52,236 nucleotides of DNA from a virus. Taxonomy: Duplodnaviria > Caudoviricetes. The translations under genes and the position numbers were made by a program. Below, piece after piece: positions 3,001 to 49,641 of the stretch. The stretch's first letter is position 1; every line of letters begins with the position of its first letter. The notes beneath the pieces are model-generated. The model did no database searches. It was not told where the DNA came from and saw only the letters and a list, made by a program, of their open reading frames with translations. The stretch spans positions 1-52,236 of IMG/VR virus record IMGVR_UViG_3300006921_000023. One strand, 5' to 3'.

Positions 3001-6000
3001 AACTGTGATCCAGTTGTAAGTCCTTGTATATTTTGTACTGATAAGTTAATTGATCCAGTCGCAAGTTCTAATGCTGATACTGAACCTTCTAATGTACCTG
3101 ATACTGTGTTCAGTGCTGATACAGATGCATTGATTGATCCAGTTGTTATCTCAAGTTGTGATAAACTTGCTGATTGATCTGTATTAGTTGCAACTGTTAG
3201 ACCGATACTGTAAGCATTCTGATTGATTGATGAGTTTGAAGCTGAGATAGAAGATGAAATCGTTGAAACGAAACTTCCCGAATCTATTTCTAGTTGTGCT
3301 ATACTTGCTGATGCATCTCCTGCTGTTAAAGATAGAGATCCAGTTATTTGTAATGTTGATCCATCCCAAGCTAACTTATCACCTAGACTAAATATACCTT
3401 CTTGGTTTACAGACAGTTGAGGCCAAGTTCCCACCGTACCCGAAGATCCTATATTGAATGCATAGATATATGCAGTTGTTTGATGGGCTGTGAATGAAAT
3501 TTTTCCTGCATTGTAGCCGGTATTACTAGTATCAGACTTTGTAACTCCATTTACTCCAGCATTATATGTTGTAGTGTCTGATATGTAGAATGACCAAGTT
3601 CCTGTGGAAGATGGAATGATCCAATTGAAGTCATATTTAAGTCCGACTACTAAATTAGTGATCGCTTGATAACCATATCCATTTGTAATTAAATTTGTTA
3701 CTTCAGGGGCATTTGTAGTAGTTAAATGACCACCACCTATTGTCCAACCGGTTGTTCCATCTGTTAATGATCCGTTTGTTAAGAAATCGGATCCAGAATC
3801 TCTAGCTACGAACGGAGTATTACTACCTTTCCAATCTCCCGTTCCAAGGAATAATTTTTTATTTGTACCATCCAACGTCACACCTTCACCTGCAGTACCT
3901 ACTGTGAGTTTATTTGAGATGTATCCATCTGCTCCTGCTATATTTGGTGAGTAGATTGATGTGCTTGTTATGAATGTACTTGATCCAGAATATTGACCGG
4001 TTGCGATTGCAGTACCTATATCAATAAATGAACTTATATCTGTTGTTGCTTGTGTGACTTTTTTAACTGCTGGTTTTGCCCAAAGTACGTATGGTGTATC
4101 GTCATCTGCACCGTATGCATCCACATTGTGGAAAGTTCGTATAGAACACCATTTGGATCCTGAACCCCAGATGTAGTCAGTAGTCTGTTTAACCTTTCTA
4201 CCAGTTACAGTATCATACATCCCACCTTTATAGGTGCCATCATAGAAAGATGAAGAACCGTGTATATATGCTACAACTAGATACCAACGATCTTGTTGTC
4301 CTCCTCTACCTCCATCTGCAATGGATTGTGTGAAGTTTCCTTTTGAAGATACTCCATCTCCTGAGAGCGAGAGGAAGTATGGATTCCAGTTAGCTGTATT
4401 TGGAGTGGCAGAGTGATATCGCATTCCTCCCATAGCAGCTCCCGCTGCATATGCATTCCCTGAAGATGCATACTCAGCAAGGTCATAAAGTATCCCATTT
4501 GGTCCCCAAGAACCTACTGAAAGAAATTGTGGCCAATTTTTATGTGCAGCATCACCTGGATTTGTATGTGAACCAGATGCACCTTGGAATACATTATCAT
4601 CTCCAGAACGTGCTCCAATGTACCAAGAACCAGTCATTCTAGATTCACCTGGGAAGTTTACATACATAGAAACTTGGTATGTTTGCATGTGATCTACCTC
4701 AAACCAATCCGTGTAAAAACCACCACCGTCTGTATCTGAATCTGGTGATGCTACCCAAACTTTTTCGTTGAGTCCATGTGGTCCGACTGACATTGATATT
4801 TCATTGTCTGTTGTTTCACCAATTTTATAATAATTTGGTGTTGCTGATTGAACCCATGGATCTGTTATAGATAAATTAGAAAAATCATTTAATATATTTT
4901 CGCCTGGTAGCATTGTACTACCAAATGATAAGTTAACTGCTGGTCCTAATCTTACGCCATCTGTTTCATCATATTGTATGAAACTTCCAGTTGGATTTCC
5001 ATCACCGATATATGCTCTTGGTGCACCCGAGTTATTTTCTAATTGTATTCCAGTTCCACTAAATTTAGATGAGCTTAATGATAATTTTCCTGCTGCATCT
5101 AATCTAGCATCATTCTTGAATATTGATCCGGAATCAACTGTCCATCCACCGATCAATGCTTCGGATGCTGTTACATCTCCTTCGATAAGTCCAGCACTTG
5201 CTGAGAATGCTCCATCCTGATCAACTTGGAAATGAGATGATGATATCATGTAAGTACCATTTGGTTCTAATTTAATCTTATTACCGCCATCTGTGAATTT
5301 ATCTGATTCTATTTTCCATCCAGCTATATTACCTGCAGATGCTGATACCGTACCTTCAATCGTTAAATTTGTTCCATCAAAATATAATTTTGCAGTATCT
5401 GCTAATCCACCTAGATGTAGTTTACCTCCATCAAGGTCAATCATTGAACCTGCATTATTGTTATTCCAATTATTTGATTGTACTTGTCCAGTTTTAATTT
5501 GATCACCTGATATAGTTGTACCAGTGCTAGTTCCAGCTGGATTCAGATAAAGAGCTCTTACTTGTCTTTCTGATAAACTTCCGGTGTATATTCTTATCTC
5601 ATCTATTGATCCATTCCATCCATGTCCGTAATTTACTGCATATTCACTACTGGCTAGATCTGCACCTCCTCCAATTCGTGTGAAACTAAAACCTGCTTGA
5701 CTAGTTCCAGTTGCTGTCCATGCATCCGTACCTTCCAGTACTCCATCAATATATAATTCGTTCAGTTGATATTTGGATACTAGTACATAGTGGTGCCATT
5801 CTGTGTCAGCTACTACGTTTGAAGTCCAGCTGGAATGATTACCTCCAGTGTTATCTGTTCCTTCATGATTCCATCTAAACTTACCTCCCGATACACCGAT
5901 GTCAATGAAATTATTAAATGGAGATCCATATAATATTCTTTGGTATTTAGTGTTGGTGGAGCCATCTGTTATAGAGTTTCGTCTGGCCCAGAATGAGATT

Positions 6001-44017: not shown

Positions 44018-44629
44018 TTATATTATTTGGTCAATAACTTTTATTTCTAATGCTTTATCAGCTGTTAGCCAGTAATCCGTTCTTTGTATCTGATCCCATT
44101 CCTCAGCTGATAATGTACTTTTCTCACTCAATATTGTATTAGACATTTTGTCTATTTCAGATACATGGTGTATACTTGCTTTAACATCAGCCTGTTTACC
44201 TTGTAGCCAAGTAGATGATTGGTGAAACATAATTGTTGAATGTTTACTAGCATATCTAGCTCCTGTTCCACTAGCCAATATGACTGCAGCTGCTGAGAAA
44301 GCTTTTCCTCTACATATTGTATTTACTGGAACGCTTAGTGATTTCATATAATCTATGATTGCCAACATTTCGTATACACATCCACCTTCCGAGTTAATTA
44401 TCATATTGATCGGTTGATCGATAGTCTCTTCCGTTCTGTTATTTAATATAGTTCGAATACGAGTCATCATATCGAATAGCGTGTACCCATCAATCTCTCC
44501 AACTAAATAAATAACGCTATCCTGTATGTCGAATGCGTATGTTATTTCATTGAACGTTTCTTTATTAGAGTTATCTTGTTTAATATCCTCTTTTCTGATT
44601 GGAGTGGGTTTATCATCGTATATTGACAT
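44018..44629 (-). CDS. clpP: ClpP-family serine protease
   Basis: IYLVGEI, INSEGG, GKAFSAAAVILASG (Ser), IMFHQ (His), RTDYWLTADKALE..ID (Asp): an intact triad. Confidence 0.92.
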   Translation of the reverse strand: MSIYDDKPTPIRKEDIKQDNSNKETFNEITYAFDIQDSVIYLVGEIDGYTLFDMMTRIRTILNNRTEETIDQPINMIINSEGGCVYEMLAIIDYMKSLSVPVNTICRGKAFSAAAVILASGTGARYASKHSTIMFHQSSTWLQGKQADVKASIHHVSEIDKMSNTILSEKSTLSAEEWDQIQRTDYWLTADKALEIKVIDQII

Positions 44630-45471: not shown

Positions 45472-45945
45472 TTACTTGATTATTTTTTCCAGCTTGCGAA
45501 TTTCTCTTTGTATCTCTCTAGCGGCTTTTTTAGTCTTAGCTCTATTTAGAGACTTCTTCAATTTATGATATGTAATCATAGCTTGTCGTTTGAGATTAGC
45601 TTTTTGAATCTTTGAGAGTTTTGGTTTGTTTGATTTCGGTTTCGGCGGTGTCGGTTTAAGCGTTCCTTTTAATTCTGGTTGCTCTTTGCCTTTATGAAAT
45701 ACATTACCATCTTTATCAACGAATTCCTTCATGAAAGCCCACCCTCTAGGCTTTCCAGATCCTTTATAACTTTTCAGTGGAGTAAAGGGAAAGTCCTTTT
45801 CATAATTTTCTCTGACGCACTCATGGCATGTAGTAGCTGTTGTTCCTTCCGTTGATGGAACATATTGTCCACAATCTCTACATTCCATATGTCTAACACC
45901 ATCTATATGTTGCACGTCGTATTTTATGTCTTCTGTTTTCTTCAT
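45472..45945 (-). CDS. Zinc-ribbon basic hypothetical protein
   Basis: CRDC...CHEC, GKPRGW..MKEFVDKDGNVF, Lys-rich C-terminal helix. Confidence 0.65.
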   Translation of the reverse strand: MKKTEDIKYDVQHIDGVRHMECRDCGQYVPSTEGTTATTCHECVRENYEKDFPFTPLKSYKGSGKPRGWAFMKEFVDKDGNVFHKGKEQPELKGTLKPTPPKPKSNKPKLSKIQKANLKRQAMITYHKLKKSLNRAKTKKAAREIQREIRKLEKIIK

Positions 45946-47649: not shown

Positions 47650-48081
47650 TTATTTAATTGTAACCGCCTTTGGCTTACTTTCCTCTGAAAGTGGTACTCT
47701 TACTTTCAACAATCCATTAGCCATCGTTGCTTTTATTTTGGTAAGATCGAATTTCGGACTTACCTTCCATCCCATATCAAAGCTTCTCCTAGCTATACCT
47801 TTATGAATATAGTCAGGTGCTTCAACATCTGATGGGTTTGATTCTACACTTGGTTTTTTATAAGCAACCTTCAAAGTATTGCTTTCTATTGTGATATCTA
47901 TATCACTTTTTTCCAACCCGACGCATGCAATGTCAAAACATAGTTCGTCCTCTTGTAGAAATACATCTACTGGGTAACTAGGTTTCTGTTCCTGCAATCC
48001 GCGGAACGATGCTTCGCCGTCAAAAAAATTTCTGAATAATAGGTCCGTTGGAAAGAACCTCTCTTGAAAGAGTGTTGTCAT
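47650..48081 (-). CDS. Small heat-shock protein (Hsp20 / alpha-crystallin)
   Basis: YPVDV, DIACVGLEKSDIDI, YIHKGIARRSF, ATMANGLLKV; AAGGAG RBS. Confidence 0.93.
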   Translation of the reverse strand: MTTLFQERFFPTDLLFRNFFDGEASFRGLQEQKPSYPVDVFLQEDELCFDIACVGLEKSDIDITIESNTLKVAYKKPSVESNPSDVEAPDYIHKGIARRSFDMGWKVSPKFDLTKIKATMANGLLKVRVPLSEESKPKAVTIK

Positions 48082-48111
48082 ATTTAATCTCCTTAAATGA
48101 TTTTATGTTAA

Positions 48112-48127
48112 GACACCCAACCTACTG
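48112..48127. repeat. Inverted repeat arm (5' UTR of hsp20), pairs with 47409..47424
   Basis: The + strand reads gacacccaacctactg. Confidence 0.85.
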
Positions 48128-48129
48128 TA

Positions 48130-48576
48130 TTAGTTGCCTTCAATAATAAATATGTACGTATGTACTTTTTCCTGTTTTTTATTTAATCTAAATCTATACT
48201 CAACGAATTTGTTTCCATGGCTCTCCATTAGATCTTTCATCTCCTTGAGCTTTGGCAGATTTTTAGCTGATAGCGCTACCATGTTGTTTACCATAGTAAC
48301 GTTAATCATATCTGATTCGATCATTCCCTTTAATCGTTTAGTATCCTTCACAGGGATTTTTTCTATAGGCGCTTGAAAGTCTGGTATTATATTATCTTTC
48401 AATTTTATATCACCAGACTCAATCCACTCCTCTATATTTTTGAATGCTTTATCTTGGCGCTTCTGAGGTAGACGATCTAACCATTCCCAGATTTCTTCTT
48501 CTGAGAACATCCAGAATTCTGAGTCTGGATTTAGTACATCTTCGATAGTCCATTTGTCTTTTGCCATGTTTAACAT
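48130..48576 (-). CDS. Hypothetical protein (likely start at 48567, MAKDKW)
   Basis: ORF immediately downstream of the tmRNA; AGGA lies before the second ATG. Confidence 0.6.
   Translation of the reverse strand: MLNMAKDKWTIEDVLNPDSEFWMFSEEEIWEWLDRLPQKRQDKAFKNIEEWIESGDIKLKDNIIPDFQAPIEKIPVKDTKRLKGMIESDMINVTMVNNMVALSAKNLPKLKEMKDLMESHGNKFVEYRFRLNKKQEKVHTYIFIIEGN
48146..48153 (-). promoter_or_regulatory. Putative promoter motif ATATTTAT upstream of hsp20
   Basis: CATATTTATTAT at the 3' end of the upstream ORF, just before the inverted-repeat arm. Confidence 0.5.
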
Positions 48577-48589
48577 CCTATTTTAATAT

Positions 48590-48816
48590 TACCAACCTCC
48601 ACCGGGCTTTAACGACTTGCCCTATTAAATGCCGTTGGGTCAGGGTGCCTAAGCCGCCATTGCCATTTCAACTTGTTCGCCAGTTACGCGTTGACCTTCC
48701 TCTTATCCTTATCACCCTGTCAAATCCAGTCACCCCCATATCATTGTTCTATTTAGTGGAGGTGGAGGGTATCGAACCCTCGTCCAAAAGTGCAGCTAAT
48801 AAAAGTACTAGCGGTC
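48590..48816 (-). ncRNA. ssrA: Circularly permuted (two-piece) tmRNA; outer ends approximate
   Basis: On the minus strand: acceptor piece ...GGAC-GAGGG-TTCGATA-CCCTC-CACCTCC-A (ends 48757), a 19-nt intervening segment, then a coding piece starting GGGGGTG-ACTGGATTTGAC at 48737. The 7-bp acceptor stem has G3-U70, followed by a tag ORF and a pseudoknot. Confidence 0.9.
48649..48681 (-). other. tmRNA tag reading frame GEQVEMAMAA*
   Basis: TAACT-GGC GAA CAA GTT GAA ATG GCA ATG GCG GCT TAG, ending in the typical Ala-Ala degron. The resume codon is inferred. Confidence 0.8.
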
Positions 48817-49185
48817 ATTATCATCTTCAATATCCCAATTGGGATCAAAATCCATAAGATCTGCAGGCAACCAATTAGATAATGCTTTCTGTATGGATTT
48901 GAGTCCACTTTTAGATTTCTTTATCTTAACTAGTTCTGCACATCTCTCATACATTTCTATGTCAGGTGCTGAATAATATTCAATGAGTGTTTCTATTAAC
49001 TCATTCATATCAGTATCATCATCCATTGGATTGATGATCATAAGCACCCTACCTTTCCTTACTGATATAGAATCGTAAGTATCTTGTTTAGTGATCAATC
49101 TATACATATTGTCCATAGCTTCTTCGTCGATCAAATCGACGTTTGCAGGATCGTTTATGTCATAGTTATGTTTCATCTTCTGCAT
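48808..49185 (-). CDS. Hypothetical protein with UVR-like motif (EMYERCAELVKI)
   Basis: Resembles the E-x-Y-E-x-A-A-x-L pattern of UvrB/C (UVR) domains. Its last codons overlap the tmRNA acceptor piece. The start may be 49176. Confidence 0.55.
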   Translation of the reverse strand: MQKMKHNYDINDPANVDLIDEEAMDNMYRLITKQDTYDSISVRKGRVLMIINPMDDDTDMNELIETLIEYYSAPDIEMYERCAELVKIKKSKSGLKSIQKALSNWLPADLMDFDPNWDIEDDNDR

Positions 49186-49193
49186 ATAAATAT
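49186..49193 (-). promoter_or_regulatory. Putative promoter motif ATATTTAT
   Basis: Lies in the 21-nt gap before the UVR-like ORF and tmRNA. Confidence 0.5.
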
Positions 49194-49206
49194 CTATTAG
49201 TAAGTG

Positions 49207-49641
49207 TTAACTTTGTTCTTTTATTAACTTTTGCAATTTAGAATGCTTGTGATATAATTCATTCATTTCCTTTAGTTGATCTGGATTGATTATCTTAATA
49301 CTTTCAATTCTGAATATGATATCTTGCACATCCATTAAATCGCACTGCATTTTATCAGCATCAAAATTAGCAGATCCTTTAGAGTCTTTTATATTATCTT
49401 TAATTAAAGATAGTAATAATTTGCCCTTCTCTAGGACCTGCTTAATTTTATTTCTAGTGAATGCATTGGATGGATCCATTTCACTGAACATATTATTCAA
49501 TGCATTCTTTAACGACTCTACGTCTTTTGTTTCGCCGAGCTTTTCTAATGCTGTATTACTTGATGCTTGGTTTAGCAACTTTGTTCCCATTTGTTCTAGC
49601 TTTTTGTGAACGCTTGTTTTTATAATATTTTCTTTTGCCAT
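49207..49641 (-). CDS. Hypothetical helical protein (start uncertain)
   Basis: ORF track; overlaps the upstream ORF by 86 nt. Confidence 0.5.
   Translation of the reverse strand: MAKENIIKTSVHKKLEQMGTKLLNQASSNTALEKLGETKDVESLKNALNNMFSEMDPSNAFTRNKIKQVLEKGKLLLSLIKDNIKDSKGSANFDADKMQCDLMDVQDIIFRIESIKIINPDQLKEMNELYHKHSKLQKLIKEQS

What the first reader, a model, noticed from the sequence alone, without database searches (positions are those of the whole stretch)
48590..48816. Phage-encoded, circularly permuted, minimal two-piece tmRNA
Seen in sequence: the 3' half of the tRNA-like domain (GGAC, T-arm GAGGG/CCCTC with loop TTCGATA, CACCTCC-A ending at 48757, no encoded CCA) comes before the 5' half (GGGGGTG at 48737), separated by 19 nt. 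The stem has the G3-U70 alanine determinant. The two pieces can pair through AGGGTG/CACTTT, GATAAGAG/CTTTTATT and GGTC/GACC. The tag starts about 11 nt after this helix, leaving no room for pseudoknot pk1. One H-type pseudoknot follows the tag (AACGGC/GTCGTT, GGGC/GCCC). The whole gene is about 230 nt. Established: standard tmRNAs are about 350-400 nt, and permuted forms are classically described in Alphaproteobacteria, some Betaproteobacteria and some cyanobacteria. Inference: this is an independent, strongly reduced permuted lineage in a phage, since the resume context (AACT-GGC-GAA) resembles Bacteroidota tags such as GENNYALAA. I cannot check whether this family is already catalogued.
Basis: partly seen in the sequence, partly recalled or inferred. 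Interest (0 to 1): 0.92.

Follow-up and report, generated by a model that had tools for sequence, protein, structure and literature searches.

The report
Compact two-piece tmRNA of marine phage
This marine phage fragment carries a real, unusually small, back-to-front ("two-piece") gene for tmRNA, the RNA that frees stalled ribosomes; phage two-piece tmRNAs are already known, but this widespread family lacks the usual first pseudoknot and I found no paper that describes it.

Summary
On the minus strand at 48816-48592 lies a circularly permuted tmRNA gene. ARAGORN calls it, with tag GEQVEMAMAA. Rfam RF04321 tmRNA_permuted scores 68.4 bits against a cut-off of 47.

In relatives, the inter-piece helix, the acceptor stem and the 3' pseudoknot covary. 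Only 11 nt separate helix P2 from the resume codon, so there is no pk1.

The gene belongs to a phage-only marine family:
- 79 viral contigs carry the tag pattern.
- 63 unique sequences were recovered.
- Among 185,579 species genomes there is one hit, in a mis-binned MAG contig.

The novelty claim is only partly right. Phage two-piece tmRNAs are published (PMC9004378). Standard tools detect this one. Equally compact permuted tmRNAs are annotated in Chryseobacterium phage MA9V-3, Maribacter phage Panino and crAss-like cr10_1.

The lineage-specific Rfam models fail, and I found no paper describing the pk1-less form. An independent origin and a Bacteroidota host are plausible but unproven. There is no evidence at the RNA level.

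This scan had already reported the same family on other DNA. Verdict: a new variant of a known kind, of moderate interest.

The parts
48813..48816 (-). Start of the acceptor piece: distal P2 strand GACC, which pairs with GGTC at 48696-48693. It lies within the last codons of the upstream ORF (48808-49185).
   Evidence: In 26 relatives, 3 of the 4 pairs change on both sides (helix 1).
48787..48805 (-). P2 3' strands of the acceptor piece: CTTTTATT (48805-48798) and CACTTT (48792-48787). Between them is the nearly invariant internal loop AGCTG.
   Evidence: helix 2 has 5 of 8 pairs, and helix 3 has 4 of 6 pairs, with changes on both sides. Invariant columns are listed.
48765..48781 (-). T-arm GAGGG / loop TTCGATA / CCCTC, preceded by GGAC.
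   Evidence: helix 4: 100% paired, and one pair has four pair types.
48757..48764 (-). Acceptor 3' strand CACCTCC plus discriminator A. CTA follows, so CCA is not encoded.
   Evidence: In 63 unique relatives the stem covaries: CACCTCC/GGGGGTG 37, CATCTCC/GGGGATG 22, CAGCTCC/GGGGCTG 3 and one G-U form. CCA is encoded in 3 of 58.
48738..48756 (-). Intervening sequence, 19 nt and AT-rich. It must be removed to free the acceptor 3' end.
   Evidence: The length is 16-22 nt in 58 of 63 unique relatives. One relative (L132) has a whole tRNA-Ala gene nested here.
48731..48737 (-). Acceptor 5' strand GGGGGTG, the 5' end of the coding piece. G3 pairs with U70.
48693..48730 (-). D-loop-like ACTGGATTTGAC, then the P2 5' strands AGGGTG (48718-13), GATAAGAG (48707-00) and GGTC (48696-93).
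48682..48692 (-). 11-nt single-stranded linker AACGCGTAACT in place of pk1. It includes the frame-setting A at -4.
   Evidence: Rfam's small hairpin after P2 is deleted in the alignment. A at -4 in 63 of 63 and T at -5 in 54 of 63 relatives.
48649..48681 (-). Tag reading frame GGC GAA CAA GTT GAA ATG GCA ATG GCG GCT TAG, encoding (A)GEQVEMAMAA.
   Evidence: variation falls mostly on third codon positions, and the stop codon is TAA, TAG or TGA in the same frame.
48604..48636 (-). H-type pseudoknot: S1 AACGGC (48636-31) / GTCGTT (48616-11); S2 GGGC (48622-19) / GCCC (48607-04).
   Evidence: All 4 S2 pairs switch between G-C and A-T. Further stem types appear.
48592..48603 (-). G-rich tail GGTGGAGGTTGG. 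It is probably not part of the functional tmRNA and may be the Shine-Dalgarno region of the next gene.
   Evidence: it does not covary with acceptor variants, and in some relatives (e.g. L039, L127, L161, L174) an intrinsic terminator takes its place directly after the pseudoknot.

Best explanation
This is a functional, phage-encoded, circularly permuted tmRNA (ssrA) gene of a compact type.

Proposed pathway:
1. The gene is transcribed on the minus strand. In this window that is probably together with the upstream 125-codon ORF.
2. The precursor folds so that the upstream 3' acceptor strand and the downstream 5' acceptor strand form the acceptor stem.
3. Host RNase P cuts before G48737. The 19-nt intervening segment is trimmed back to A48757, and host CCA-adding enzyme adds CCA.
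4. Two RNAs result: an acceptor piece of about 63 nt and a coding piece of about 135-145 nt. They are held together by the acceptor stem and the 18-bp helix P2.
5. Host alanyl-tRNA synthetase charges the RNA, using G3-U70. Host SmpB and EF-Tu deliver it to ribosomes stalled on broken mRNAs.
6. Translation resumes at GGC, four nucleotides after the invariant A. The nascent chain receives AGEQVEMAMAA and the ribosome is released.

The phage presumably gains spare rescue capacity while host mRNA is being degraded. It may also gain disposal of tagged chains through host or phage ClpP.

Shown here: the gene's anatomy, its conservation and its covariation. Inferred from established tmRNA biology: processing, charging, tagging and the benefit to the phage.
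For: Detection:
- ARAGORN calls a permuted tmRNA.
- RF04321 scores 68.4 bits against a cut-off of 47.

Structure under selection:
- 12 of 18 P2 pairs and one T-arm pair change on both sides in 26 relatives. 96.1% of cells pair, against 48-57% when partners are slid, and 0 of 500 shuffles reach the observed score.
- Acceptor pair 5-68 covaries as G-C, A-U and C-G, while G3-U70 is kept in all 63 unique family sequences.
- The pseudoknot is kept in a common frame in 22 of 26 relatives, with compensatory G-C/A-T switches in all four S2 pairs. Slid controls pair at 20-39%.

Tag frame under selection:
- Changes fall mostly on third codon positions.
- Three different stop codons occur in the same frame.
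- A at -4 is invariant in 63 of 63. This matches the A86 rule of E. coli (PMC2481249, passages).

Plausibility of working without pk1: pk1 can be replaced by single-stranded RNA in E. coli without losing tagging (PMC4236655, passage).

Family and context:
- The tag pattern occurs in 79 viral contigs. Among 185,579 species genomes it occurs once, on a contig that shares a phage gene with this window.
- The neighbourhood is syntenic: orf377 in 42, orf157 in 45, Hsp20 in 28 and ClpP in 17 of 81 family loci.
- A promoter-like ATATTTAT motif sits at a fixed distance upstream in 50 of 58 relatives.
- Two-piece processing by tRNA-processing enzymes is the established route for permuted tmRNA genes (PMC11915505 introduction; PMC9004378).
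Against: - No evidence at the RNA level. Two marine RNA-labelled runs gave only short low-depth contigs over conserved parts, mostly from relatives, with no information on ends.
- Folding this sequence alone gives z = -0.09 and does not recover P2.
- The pseudoknot is not significant in single sequences against shuffles. For the window, 7 of 30 shuffles score as high, and the top-scoring fold there has another topology.
- No SmpB gene in the window or in five larger relatives that are 45-87% complete. Function therefore depends on an unidentified host's SmpB accepting a pk1-less RNA.
- In this window there is no dedicated promoter motif and no terminator. The 5' end of the acceptor piece lies inside an ORF, so an extra processing step is needed that nothing here demonstrates.
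- The tag ends in MAA rather than the best-studied LAA.
Confidence: 0.8

Rival explanations
1. It is a decoy or re-targeting device, not a rescue aid. The phage RNA would compete with the host tmRNA for SmpB and stalled ribosomes. It would either block host trans-translation or attach a phage-specific tag (AGEQVEMAMAA) that host adaptors ignore or that feeds a phage ClpP.
For: - No cellular genome in the one-per-species collection encodes this exact tag under any codons, apart from one mis-binned contig.
- A ClpP gene lies about 4 kb downstream on the same strand. It recurs in 17 of 81 family loci and in 3 of 5 larger relatives.
- A phage TLD-only RNA that inhibits tmRNA is on record (PMC4131195 and PMC11915505, passages).
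Against: - The complete tag frame, the frame-setting A at -4 and the alanine identity pair are all conserved. A mere SmpB sponge would not need them.
- The tag's style (GE start, AMAA end) occurs in cellular one-piece tmRNAs of Bacteroidota. Ordinary recognition by host proteases is therefore plausible.
- ClpP is absent from most family loci examined (64 of 81) and from 2 of 5 larger contigs.
Confidence: 0.13
2. It is a by-product of integration: a piece of host ssrA carried by a temperate phage to restore the gene after insertion.
For: tmRNA genes are common integration sites, and this reading was offered for Maribacter phage Panino (PMC11590407, passage).
Against: - The gene is complete and permuted, whereas cellular genomes of the candidate host phylum carry the one-piece form: 97 of 101 have it over the cut-off, and 0 of 151 have a permuted form over the cut-off.
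- The family sequence is absent from cellular genomes.
- The Pfam and PHROGs scans of 18 of the window's ORFs returned no integrase family. The remaining ORFs were not scanned.
- Covariation shows selection on the RNA itself.
Confidence: 0.03
3. It is a false positive: a tRNA-like element or a decayed tRNA gene followed by a chance open frame.
For: ARAGORN and the Rfam tmRNA models do produce false positives on tRNAs (PMC4131195, passage). The general permuted model covers only the tRNA-like domain (PMC11915505).
Against: - The halves are in permuted order, and their inter-piece helices covary.
- The 11-codon frame and its upstream context are conserved.
- A covarying pseudoknot lies downstream.
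- No anticodon arm is present.
Confidence: 0.02

Closest known systems
Compact permuted tmRNAs annotated in phages of Bacteroidota: Chryseobacterium phage MA9V-3 (PV245944), Maribacter phage Panino (PP540027), crAss-like phage cr10_1 (MT774382)
   Same: - Permuted gene order by both ARAGORN and RF04321.
- Only 60-62 nt from the 5' acceptor end to the resume codon, so no pk1, against 56 nt here.
- Tags start with G.
- After two long-tag variants (L116, L060), these have the closest tRNA-like-domain sequences among the non-family permuted tmRNAs I compared.
   Different: - Only the T-arm and acceptor region aligns by blastn, covering at most 19% of the query.
- Tags are unrelated: GNVIDINKYVAKLEVAA, GKVMNVSFAPTVRQFA, GNNFVTDYTQLAVA.
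- Intervening sequences are longer, at 39-99 nt against 19 nt.
- The papers on these phages only list 'tmRNA' (passages).
Published phage two-piece tmRNAs of aquatic myophages: OM43 phage Melnitz and Pelagibacter phage Mosig (PMC9004378)
   Same: - Phage-encoded and permuted, in large marine myophages with no SmpB gene reported.
- Mosig's tag also starts with GE: GEDNFALAA.
   Different: - Mosig has 78 nt between the 5' end and the resume codon, and a 47-nt intervening sequence.
- Those genes were placed with alphaproteobacterial tmRNAs, and Melnitz carries a glutamine riboswitch. No riboswitch match appears here.
- Their supplementary list of 53 two-piece phage tmRNAs could not be opened.
Two-piece tmRNAs of Alphaproteobacteria, some Betaproteobacteria and cyanobacteria (Rfam RF01849, RF01850, RF01851; merged tRNA-domain model RF04321)
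   Same: Same permuted order, with the acceptor stem and helix P2 formed between the two pieces. The score is above the RF04321 cut-off.
   Different: - At gathering thresholds only RF04321 is reported.
- The best lineage-specific model, beta_tmRNA, reaches 49.9 bits against a cut-off of 84.
- No pk1, one downstream pseudoknot, and a much shorter gene.
Standard one-piece tmRNA (RF00023), e.g. of Bacteroidota
   Same: - tRNA-like domain, G3-U70 and the frame-setting A at -4.
- Tag style: GE start in 5 of 31, AMAA end in 10 of 31.
   Different: One piece of 349-383 nt, with the resume codon at position 90-103 and pk1 present. Here the order is permuted and the resume codon is at position 57 of the coding piece.
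'Nominally archaeal' permuted tmRNAs in the 2025 tmRNA database (PMC11915505)
   Same: - That paper reports 19 permuted tmRNAs in archaeal MAGs, one with an intact tRNA-Ala gene in its intervening sequence (passage).
- Family member L132 has exactly such a nested tRNA-Ala.
- The only genome-collection hit of this family's tag lies in an archaeon-labelled MAG, on a contig that shares a phage gene with this window.
   Different: I could not see the database or its supplements, so identity with this family is an inference. The paper attributes these genes to mis-binned bacterial contigs, not phage contigs.

Membership tests
tmRNA (ssrA) in general | tRNA-like domain: 7-bp acceptor stem stacked on a T-arm with a TTCRA-type loop | tested here: met
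   The T-arm and acceptor are 100% paired in 26 relatives. The acceptor covaries in 63.
tmRNA (ssrA) in general | G3-U70 alanine identity pair | tested here: met
   GGGGGTG pairs with CACCTCC, placing G3 opposite U. The pair is kept in all 63 unique family sequences.
tmRNA (ssrA) in general | Short tag frame with a defined resume codon, a conserved A four nucleotides upstream, and a hydrophobic Ala-Ala end plus stop | tested here: met
   The tag is GEQVEMAMAA*. Codon-wise conservation and A at -4 in 63 of 63. The rule comes from PMC2481249.
tmRNA (ssrA) in general | Works with SmpB; alanylation and tagging activity | not testable with these tools
   No SmpB (PF01668) in the window or in 5 larger relatives, so a host protein is required.
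Permuted (two-piece) tmRNA, Rfam RF04321 | The 3' half of the tRNA-like domain is encoded upstream of the 5' half, and the score reaches the family's gathering score | tested here: met
   68.4 bits against 47, covering all 213 model positions. ARAGORN flags the gene as 'tmRNA*'.
Permuted (two-piece) tmRNA, Rfam RF04321 | Helix P2 formed between the two pieces | tested here: met
   18 pairs in three segments, of which 12 show compensatory change.
Permuted (two-piece) tmRNA, Rfam RF04321 | The precursor is processed into two stable RNAs | not testable with these tools
   Only contigs of two RNA-labelled runs were on hand, with no information on ends.
Alpha-, beta- or cyano-type two-piece tmRNA (RF01849, RF01850, RF01851) | Reaches the lineage model's gathering score, which covers lineage-specific helices and pseudoknots | tested here: not met
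   None is listed at gathering thresholds. beta_tmRNA scores 49.9 bits against 84, and the others score lower and were dropped.
Canonical tmRNA architecture | Pseudoknot pk1 between helix P2 and the resume codon | tested here: not met
   - The linker is 11 nt.
- The 5' end to the resume codon spans 55-62 nt in 58 family sequences, against 68-226 nt in the other permuted viral tmRNAs except L117 at 57 nt.
- In Bacteroidota one-piece tmRNAs the resume codon is at position 90-103.
Compact permuted tmRNAs of Bacteroidota phages (informal group) | Permuted order, about 60 nt from the 5' end to the resume codon, G-starting tag, phage-borne | tested here: met
   That this window's host is a member of Bacteroidota was not established.

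The most novel reading that the evidence does not exclude
The window's gene belongs to a phage-only lineage of two-piece tmRNAs that arose by a permutation event inside phages of Bacteroidota. On this reading the event is separate from the alpha-, beta- and cyanobacterial events. The lineage works without pk1, at about 200 nt in total, using the host's SmpB. This would make it the smallest natural tagging-competent tmRNA. It would also explain the puzzling 'archaeal' permuted tmRNAs in the 2025 tmRNA database as mis-binned phage contigs.
Probability: 0.4. Interest if true: 0.6.

Novelty: new variant of a known kind. Interest (0 to 1): 0.42.

Why it matters
If it is active, this family is a natural minimal tmRNA. 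It has a tRNA-like domain, one 18-bp helix, an 11-nt linker, an 11-codon frame and one pseudoknot.

- It offers a natural test of which parts of tmRNA trans-translation really needs. So far that question has been addressed mainly with engineered E. coli mutants (PMC4236655, PMC2481249).
- The family is abundant in marine viral contigs. It shows that large marine phages routinely bring their own ribosome-rescue RNA, often alongside Hsp20 and ClpP genes.
- For annotation, it suggests that permuted tmRNAs reported from archaeal or odd bacterial MAGs may mark mis-binned phage contigs.

As a single instance it adds little. The family is detectable with standard tools, and this scan has reported it many times.

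Tried and rejected
**RNA evidence.** One search for runs found two marine RNA-labelled runs holding 5-8% of the sampled words. Laying them gave seven short low-depth contig pieces. Those over the tmRNA covered only conserved parts, carried mismatches and ran on into unlike sequence, so they come from relatives. Nothing can be said about expression, ends or processing.

**Tail pairing with the acceptor.** The 9-nt perfect complement between the tail GGTGGAGGT (within 48603-48592) and the acceptor 3' strand looked like a regulatory pairing. I rejected this. In relatives the tail does not follow the acceptor variants CATCTCC or CAGCTCC, and some lineages replace it with a terminator.

**Single-sequence tests.** My own pseudoknot finder against 30 mononucleotide shuffles per sequence was not significant for most single sequences. 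For the window, L039 and L062 it preferred another topology, CCCTG/TAGGG. Covariation among relatives favours the S2 pairing with the downstream strand. The frame used was chosen for best pairing, so its 100% is partly by construction. Four of the 26 sequences (L114, L059, L062, L067) were left out of that count because of a register shift or an insert.

**Alignment of the 3' region.** MAFFT alignment A2 put S2 out of register, so I did not use it with the count of structure pairs.

**A hairpin in place of pk1.** In this family the linker is 8-15 nt, and the distal helix covaries between the two pieces. I see no hairpin.

**Host.**
- The baseplate wedge protein is closest to Microcystis phage Mel-JY01 (47.6%) and Flavobacterium phage immuto (42.5%). 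Neither record has a permuted tmRNA.
- A 79%-identical ClpP lies in a Saprospirales-labelled MAG, while the tmRNA family's only genome hit lies in an archaeon-labelled MAG. Bins are not reliable host evidence.
- The host stays open.

**Neighbouring proteins as a hidden SmpB.** orf157 and orf148 gave no Pfam family at E <= 0.01 and no convincing PDB match. I did not fold them.

**Position-wise identity of the tRNA-like domain** to Bacteroidota one-piece tmRNAs was spoiled by register differences at the 3' end. I draw nothing from those rows.

**Literature.** Six searches and passages of ten papers turned up no description of a pk1-less permuted phage tmRNA. I read passages only, not whole texts. 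Table S1 of PMC9004378 and the supplementary tables and files of PMC11915505 may list members of this family.
Full report
**What the window is.** The window is a 52-kb fragment of an uncultivated virus record, with completeness estimated at about 30%. All long ORFs lie on the minus strand. They include baseplate wedge and tape-measure-like proteins, an ATP-dependent DNA ligase, Hsp20 and ClpP. The baseplate wedge protein is most like those of Microcystis phage Mel-JY01 (47.6%) and Flavobacterium phage immuto (42.5%). This is therefore a large marine myophage.

**The observation.** ARAGORN finds one RNA gene in the window: a permuted tmRNA at 48848-48558 on the minus strand, with tag GEQVEMAMAA. 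Rfam release 15 reports a single family at gathering thresholds, RF04321 tmRNA_permuted, at 48816-48640. It scores 68.4 bits against a cut-off of 47, with E = 4e-11.
- P2 strands GACC, CTTTTATT and CACTTT at 48816-48787.
- T-arm at 48781-48765.
- Acceptor 3' strand and discriminator at 48764-48757, followed by CTA rather than CCA.
- A 19-nt intervening sequence.
- GGGGGTG at 48737-48731, with G3 opposite U.
- The partner P2 strands at 48718-48693.
- An 11-nt linker.
- The tag frame at 48681-48649.
- A pseudoknot at 48636-48604.

From 48816 to 48592 the gene spans 225 nt.

**Relatives.**
- ARAGORN called tmRNAs in 106 of the 123 records then held.
- A pattern for the tag itself hit 79 viral contigs.
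- Together these give 83 ARAGORN calls of this family (the window and its copy L001 among them), with 63 unique core sequences.
- In 185,579 species genomes, the tag pattern occurs once, and so does a version degenerate over all codons. That hit is on a 15-kb contig of a MAG labelled as an ammonia-oxidising archaeon.
- That contig also encodes a 70%-identical homologue of the window's SLT-like protein, so it is very probably a mis-binned phage contig.
- In 50,697 deposited phage genomes, blastn finds only the T-arm and acceptor region, covering at most 19% of the query.
- The family is thus phage-borne, common in marine viral contigs, and without a close cultured representative.

**Structure under selection.**
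- 13 of its 30 pairs change on both sides, and 0 of 500 shuffles reach the observed covariation score.
- Twelve of the 18 inter-piece P2 pairs are compensatory.
- In that first set the acceptor was fixed by my search pattern. In the tag-based set it covaries: CACCTCC/GGGGGTG 37, CATCTCC/GGGGATG 22, CAGCTCC/GGGGCTG 3 and one G-U form. G3-U70 is constant.
- The pseudoknot fits one frame in 22 of 26 sequences. All four S2 pairs switch between G-C and A-T, and slid controls pair at 20-39%. Further stem types (GAGGT/ACCTC, GGGAT/ATCCC, GAGAC/GTCTC) appear in the larger set.

Against this, folding the window's sequence alone gives no signal: z = -0.09, with P2 absent from the MFE fold. Single-sequence pseudoknot scores do not beat shuffles.

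**The tag.**
- Across 63 unique sequences, variation falls mostly on third codon positions: GCA/GCG, GCT/GCG/GCC/GCA, and ATG/CTA/TTA for Met/Leu.
- The stop codon is TAA, TAG or TGA in the same frame.
- Caveat: the second search pattern fixed most other positions. The 26 sequences found independently of the tag show the same picture.
- The base four nucleotides before the resume codon is A in 63 of 63, and the one before that is T in 54 of 63. This matches U85-A86 of E. coli, where A86 sets the frame four nucleotides downstream (PMC2481249, passages).

**No pk1.**
- The distance from the first G of the coding piece to the resume codon is 55-62 nt in the 58 family sequences measured.
- In the other permuted viral tmRNAs retrieved it is 68-226 nt, except L117 at 57 nt.
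- In 31 one-piece tmRNAs of Bacteroidota the resume codon sits at position 90-103.
- After P2 only 8-15 nt remain, and the small hairpin in Rfam's model is deleted in the alignment.
- Natural tmRNAs without pk1 were noted as rare exceptions in a 2005 survey, which also gave 250 nt as the shortest tagging tmRNA (PMC1168896, passages).
- Experiments show that pk1 can be replaced by single-stranded RNA (PMC4236655).
- The predicted mature RNA here is about 63 nt plus about 135-145 nt.

**What is already known.**
- Phage two-piece tmRNAs are published. A 2022 study counted 53 unique two-piece forms among 18,146 phage genomes, 50 of them aquatic, and described those of Melnitz and the pelagimyophages (PMC9004378, passages).
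[quoted passage not shown] The match here shows membership of the permuted form, not of one of those lineages.
- No lineage-specific model reaches its cut-off. beta_tmRNA scores 49.9 bits against 84.
- Equally compact permuted tmRNAs are annotated in Chryseobacterium phage MA9V-3, Maribacter phage Panino and crAss-like cr10_1, at 60-62 nt to the resume codon and with G-starting tags. After two long-tag variants (L116, L060), their tRNA-like domains are the nearest to the window's among the non-family permuted tmRNAs I compared.
- The papers on these phages merely list a tmRNA.
- Six literature searches found no description of the pk1-less form. Supplements were closed.

**Host and origin.**
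- In a sample from the phylum of a Saprospirales-labelled genome (Bacteroidota), 97 of 101 genomes have a one-piece tmRNA over the cut-off.
- In the same phylum, 0 of 151 genomes have a permuted one.
- Of 31 tags read there, 5 start with GE, 10 end in AMAA, and two share the context TAACT|GGCGAA with the window.
- It is not proof. Pelagibacter phage Mosig also encodes GEDNFALAA, no cellular genome encodes this exact tag, and the host is not identified.

**How it most likely works.** Steps 2-6 are inferred from the established biology of two-piece tmRNAs, not shown here.
1. In 50 of 58 relatives a promoter-like ATATTTAT motif lies at a fixed distance, ending a few bases before the first P2 strand. 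In this window the motif is instead at 49186-49193, before the 125-codon ORF whose last codons overlap GACC. I found no sigma-70-like promoter directly upstream of the tmRNA and no terminator in 48000-49400. The tmRNA is therefore probably co-transcribed and cut out.
2. RNase P would cut before G48737.
3. The intervening segment would be trimmed and CCA added.
4. AlaRS would charge the RNA.
5. Host SmpB would deliver it. None is encoded in the window or in five larger relatives.
6. Stalled chains would receive AGEQVEMAMAA.

One relative carries a whole tRNA-Ala gene in the intervening sequence. That fits excision by tRNA-processing enzymes.

ClpP and Hsp20 recur nearby. A proteostasis module is possible, but ClpP is present in only 17 of 81 loci.

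**Verdict.** This is a real compact two-piece tmRNA gene of a large phage-only family: a new variant of a known kind rather than a new kind. Earlier follow-ups in this scan reached the same reading on other genomes. My tests agree with them, with two exceptions for this family: I see no hairpin replacing pk1, and the tag resembles host tags without copying one.

Noticed in passing
L132:3480-3844 (minus strand): A complete tRNA-Ala(UGC) gene (3674-3748) is nested in the intervening sequence of a family tmRNA. The 2025 tmRNA database paper reports the same oddity in a 'nominally archaeal' permuted tmRNA (PMC11915505). Those entries may be mis-binned phage contigs.
   Followed up: partly
L125:4220-4511: This is the only hit of the family's tag in 185,579 species genomes, on a 15-kb contig of an archaeon-labelled MAG. 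The contig also encodes a 70%-identical homologue of the window's SLT-like protein, so it looks like a phage contig binned by mistake.
   Followed up: partly
L116:9912-10399 and L060:8241-8728: Sister variants have the same tRNA-like domain, P2, short linker, pseudoknot and terminator. Their tag frame is about 35 codons long and ends in LAMAA. ARAGORN reads them in the wrong frame.
   Followed up: no
L133, L159, L160, L172 (intervening sequences): Four family members, plus L132, have long intervening sequences. The four share an AT-rich insert of about 70 nt that includes a TATAAT-like stretch. This could be a separate promoter for the coding piece.
   Followed up: no
window 48592-48603 (minus strand): The G-rich tail GGTGGAGGTTGG includes a perfect 9-nt complement of the acceptor 3' strand. 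In relatives the tail is G-rich but does not covary with acceptor variants, and some relatives (e.g. L039, L127, L161, L174) have an intrinsic terminator there instead. It is probably a ribosome-binding region of the next gene.
   Followed up: yes
window 49186-49193 and relatives: ATATTTAT occurs 19 times in the window against 10.9 expected (1 of 100 shuffles reaches 19), with 12 copies on the coding strand. It sits at a fixed distance upstream of the tmRNA in 50 of 58 relatives. The window and L062 lack it there, because a 125-codon ORF abuts the tmRNA.
   Followed up: partly
window 45472-45945 (minus strand): orf157 has a CxxC...CxxC zinc-ribbon-like N-terminus and a very basic, probably helical C-terminal tail. 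It lies downstream of the tmRNA in 45 of 81 family loci. It has no Pfam family at E <= 0.01 and no PDB match. Its function is unknown, and a role at the ribosome is only a guess.
   Followed up: partly
window 44018-44629 and 47650-48081 (minus strand): ClpP (PF00574, E = 1.3e-31) and Hsp20 (PF00011) lie on the same strand within 5 kb of the tmRNA. ClpP recurs in 17 and Hsp20 in 28 of 81 family loci.
   Followed up: partly
L189 (genome contig): A ClpP 79% identical to the window's lies on a 14-kb contig of a Saprospirales-labelled MAG. That genome has its own one-piece tmRNA with tag GENNFAMAA. This is a weak hint for a Bacteroidota host.
   Followed up: partly
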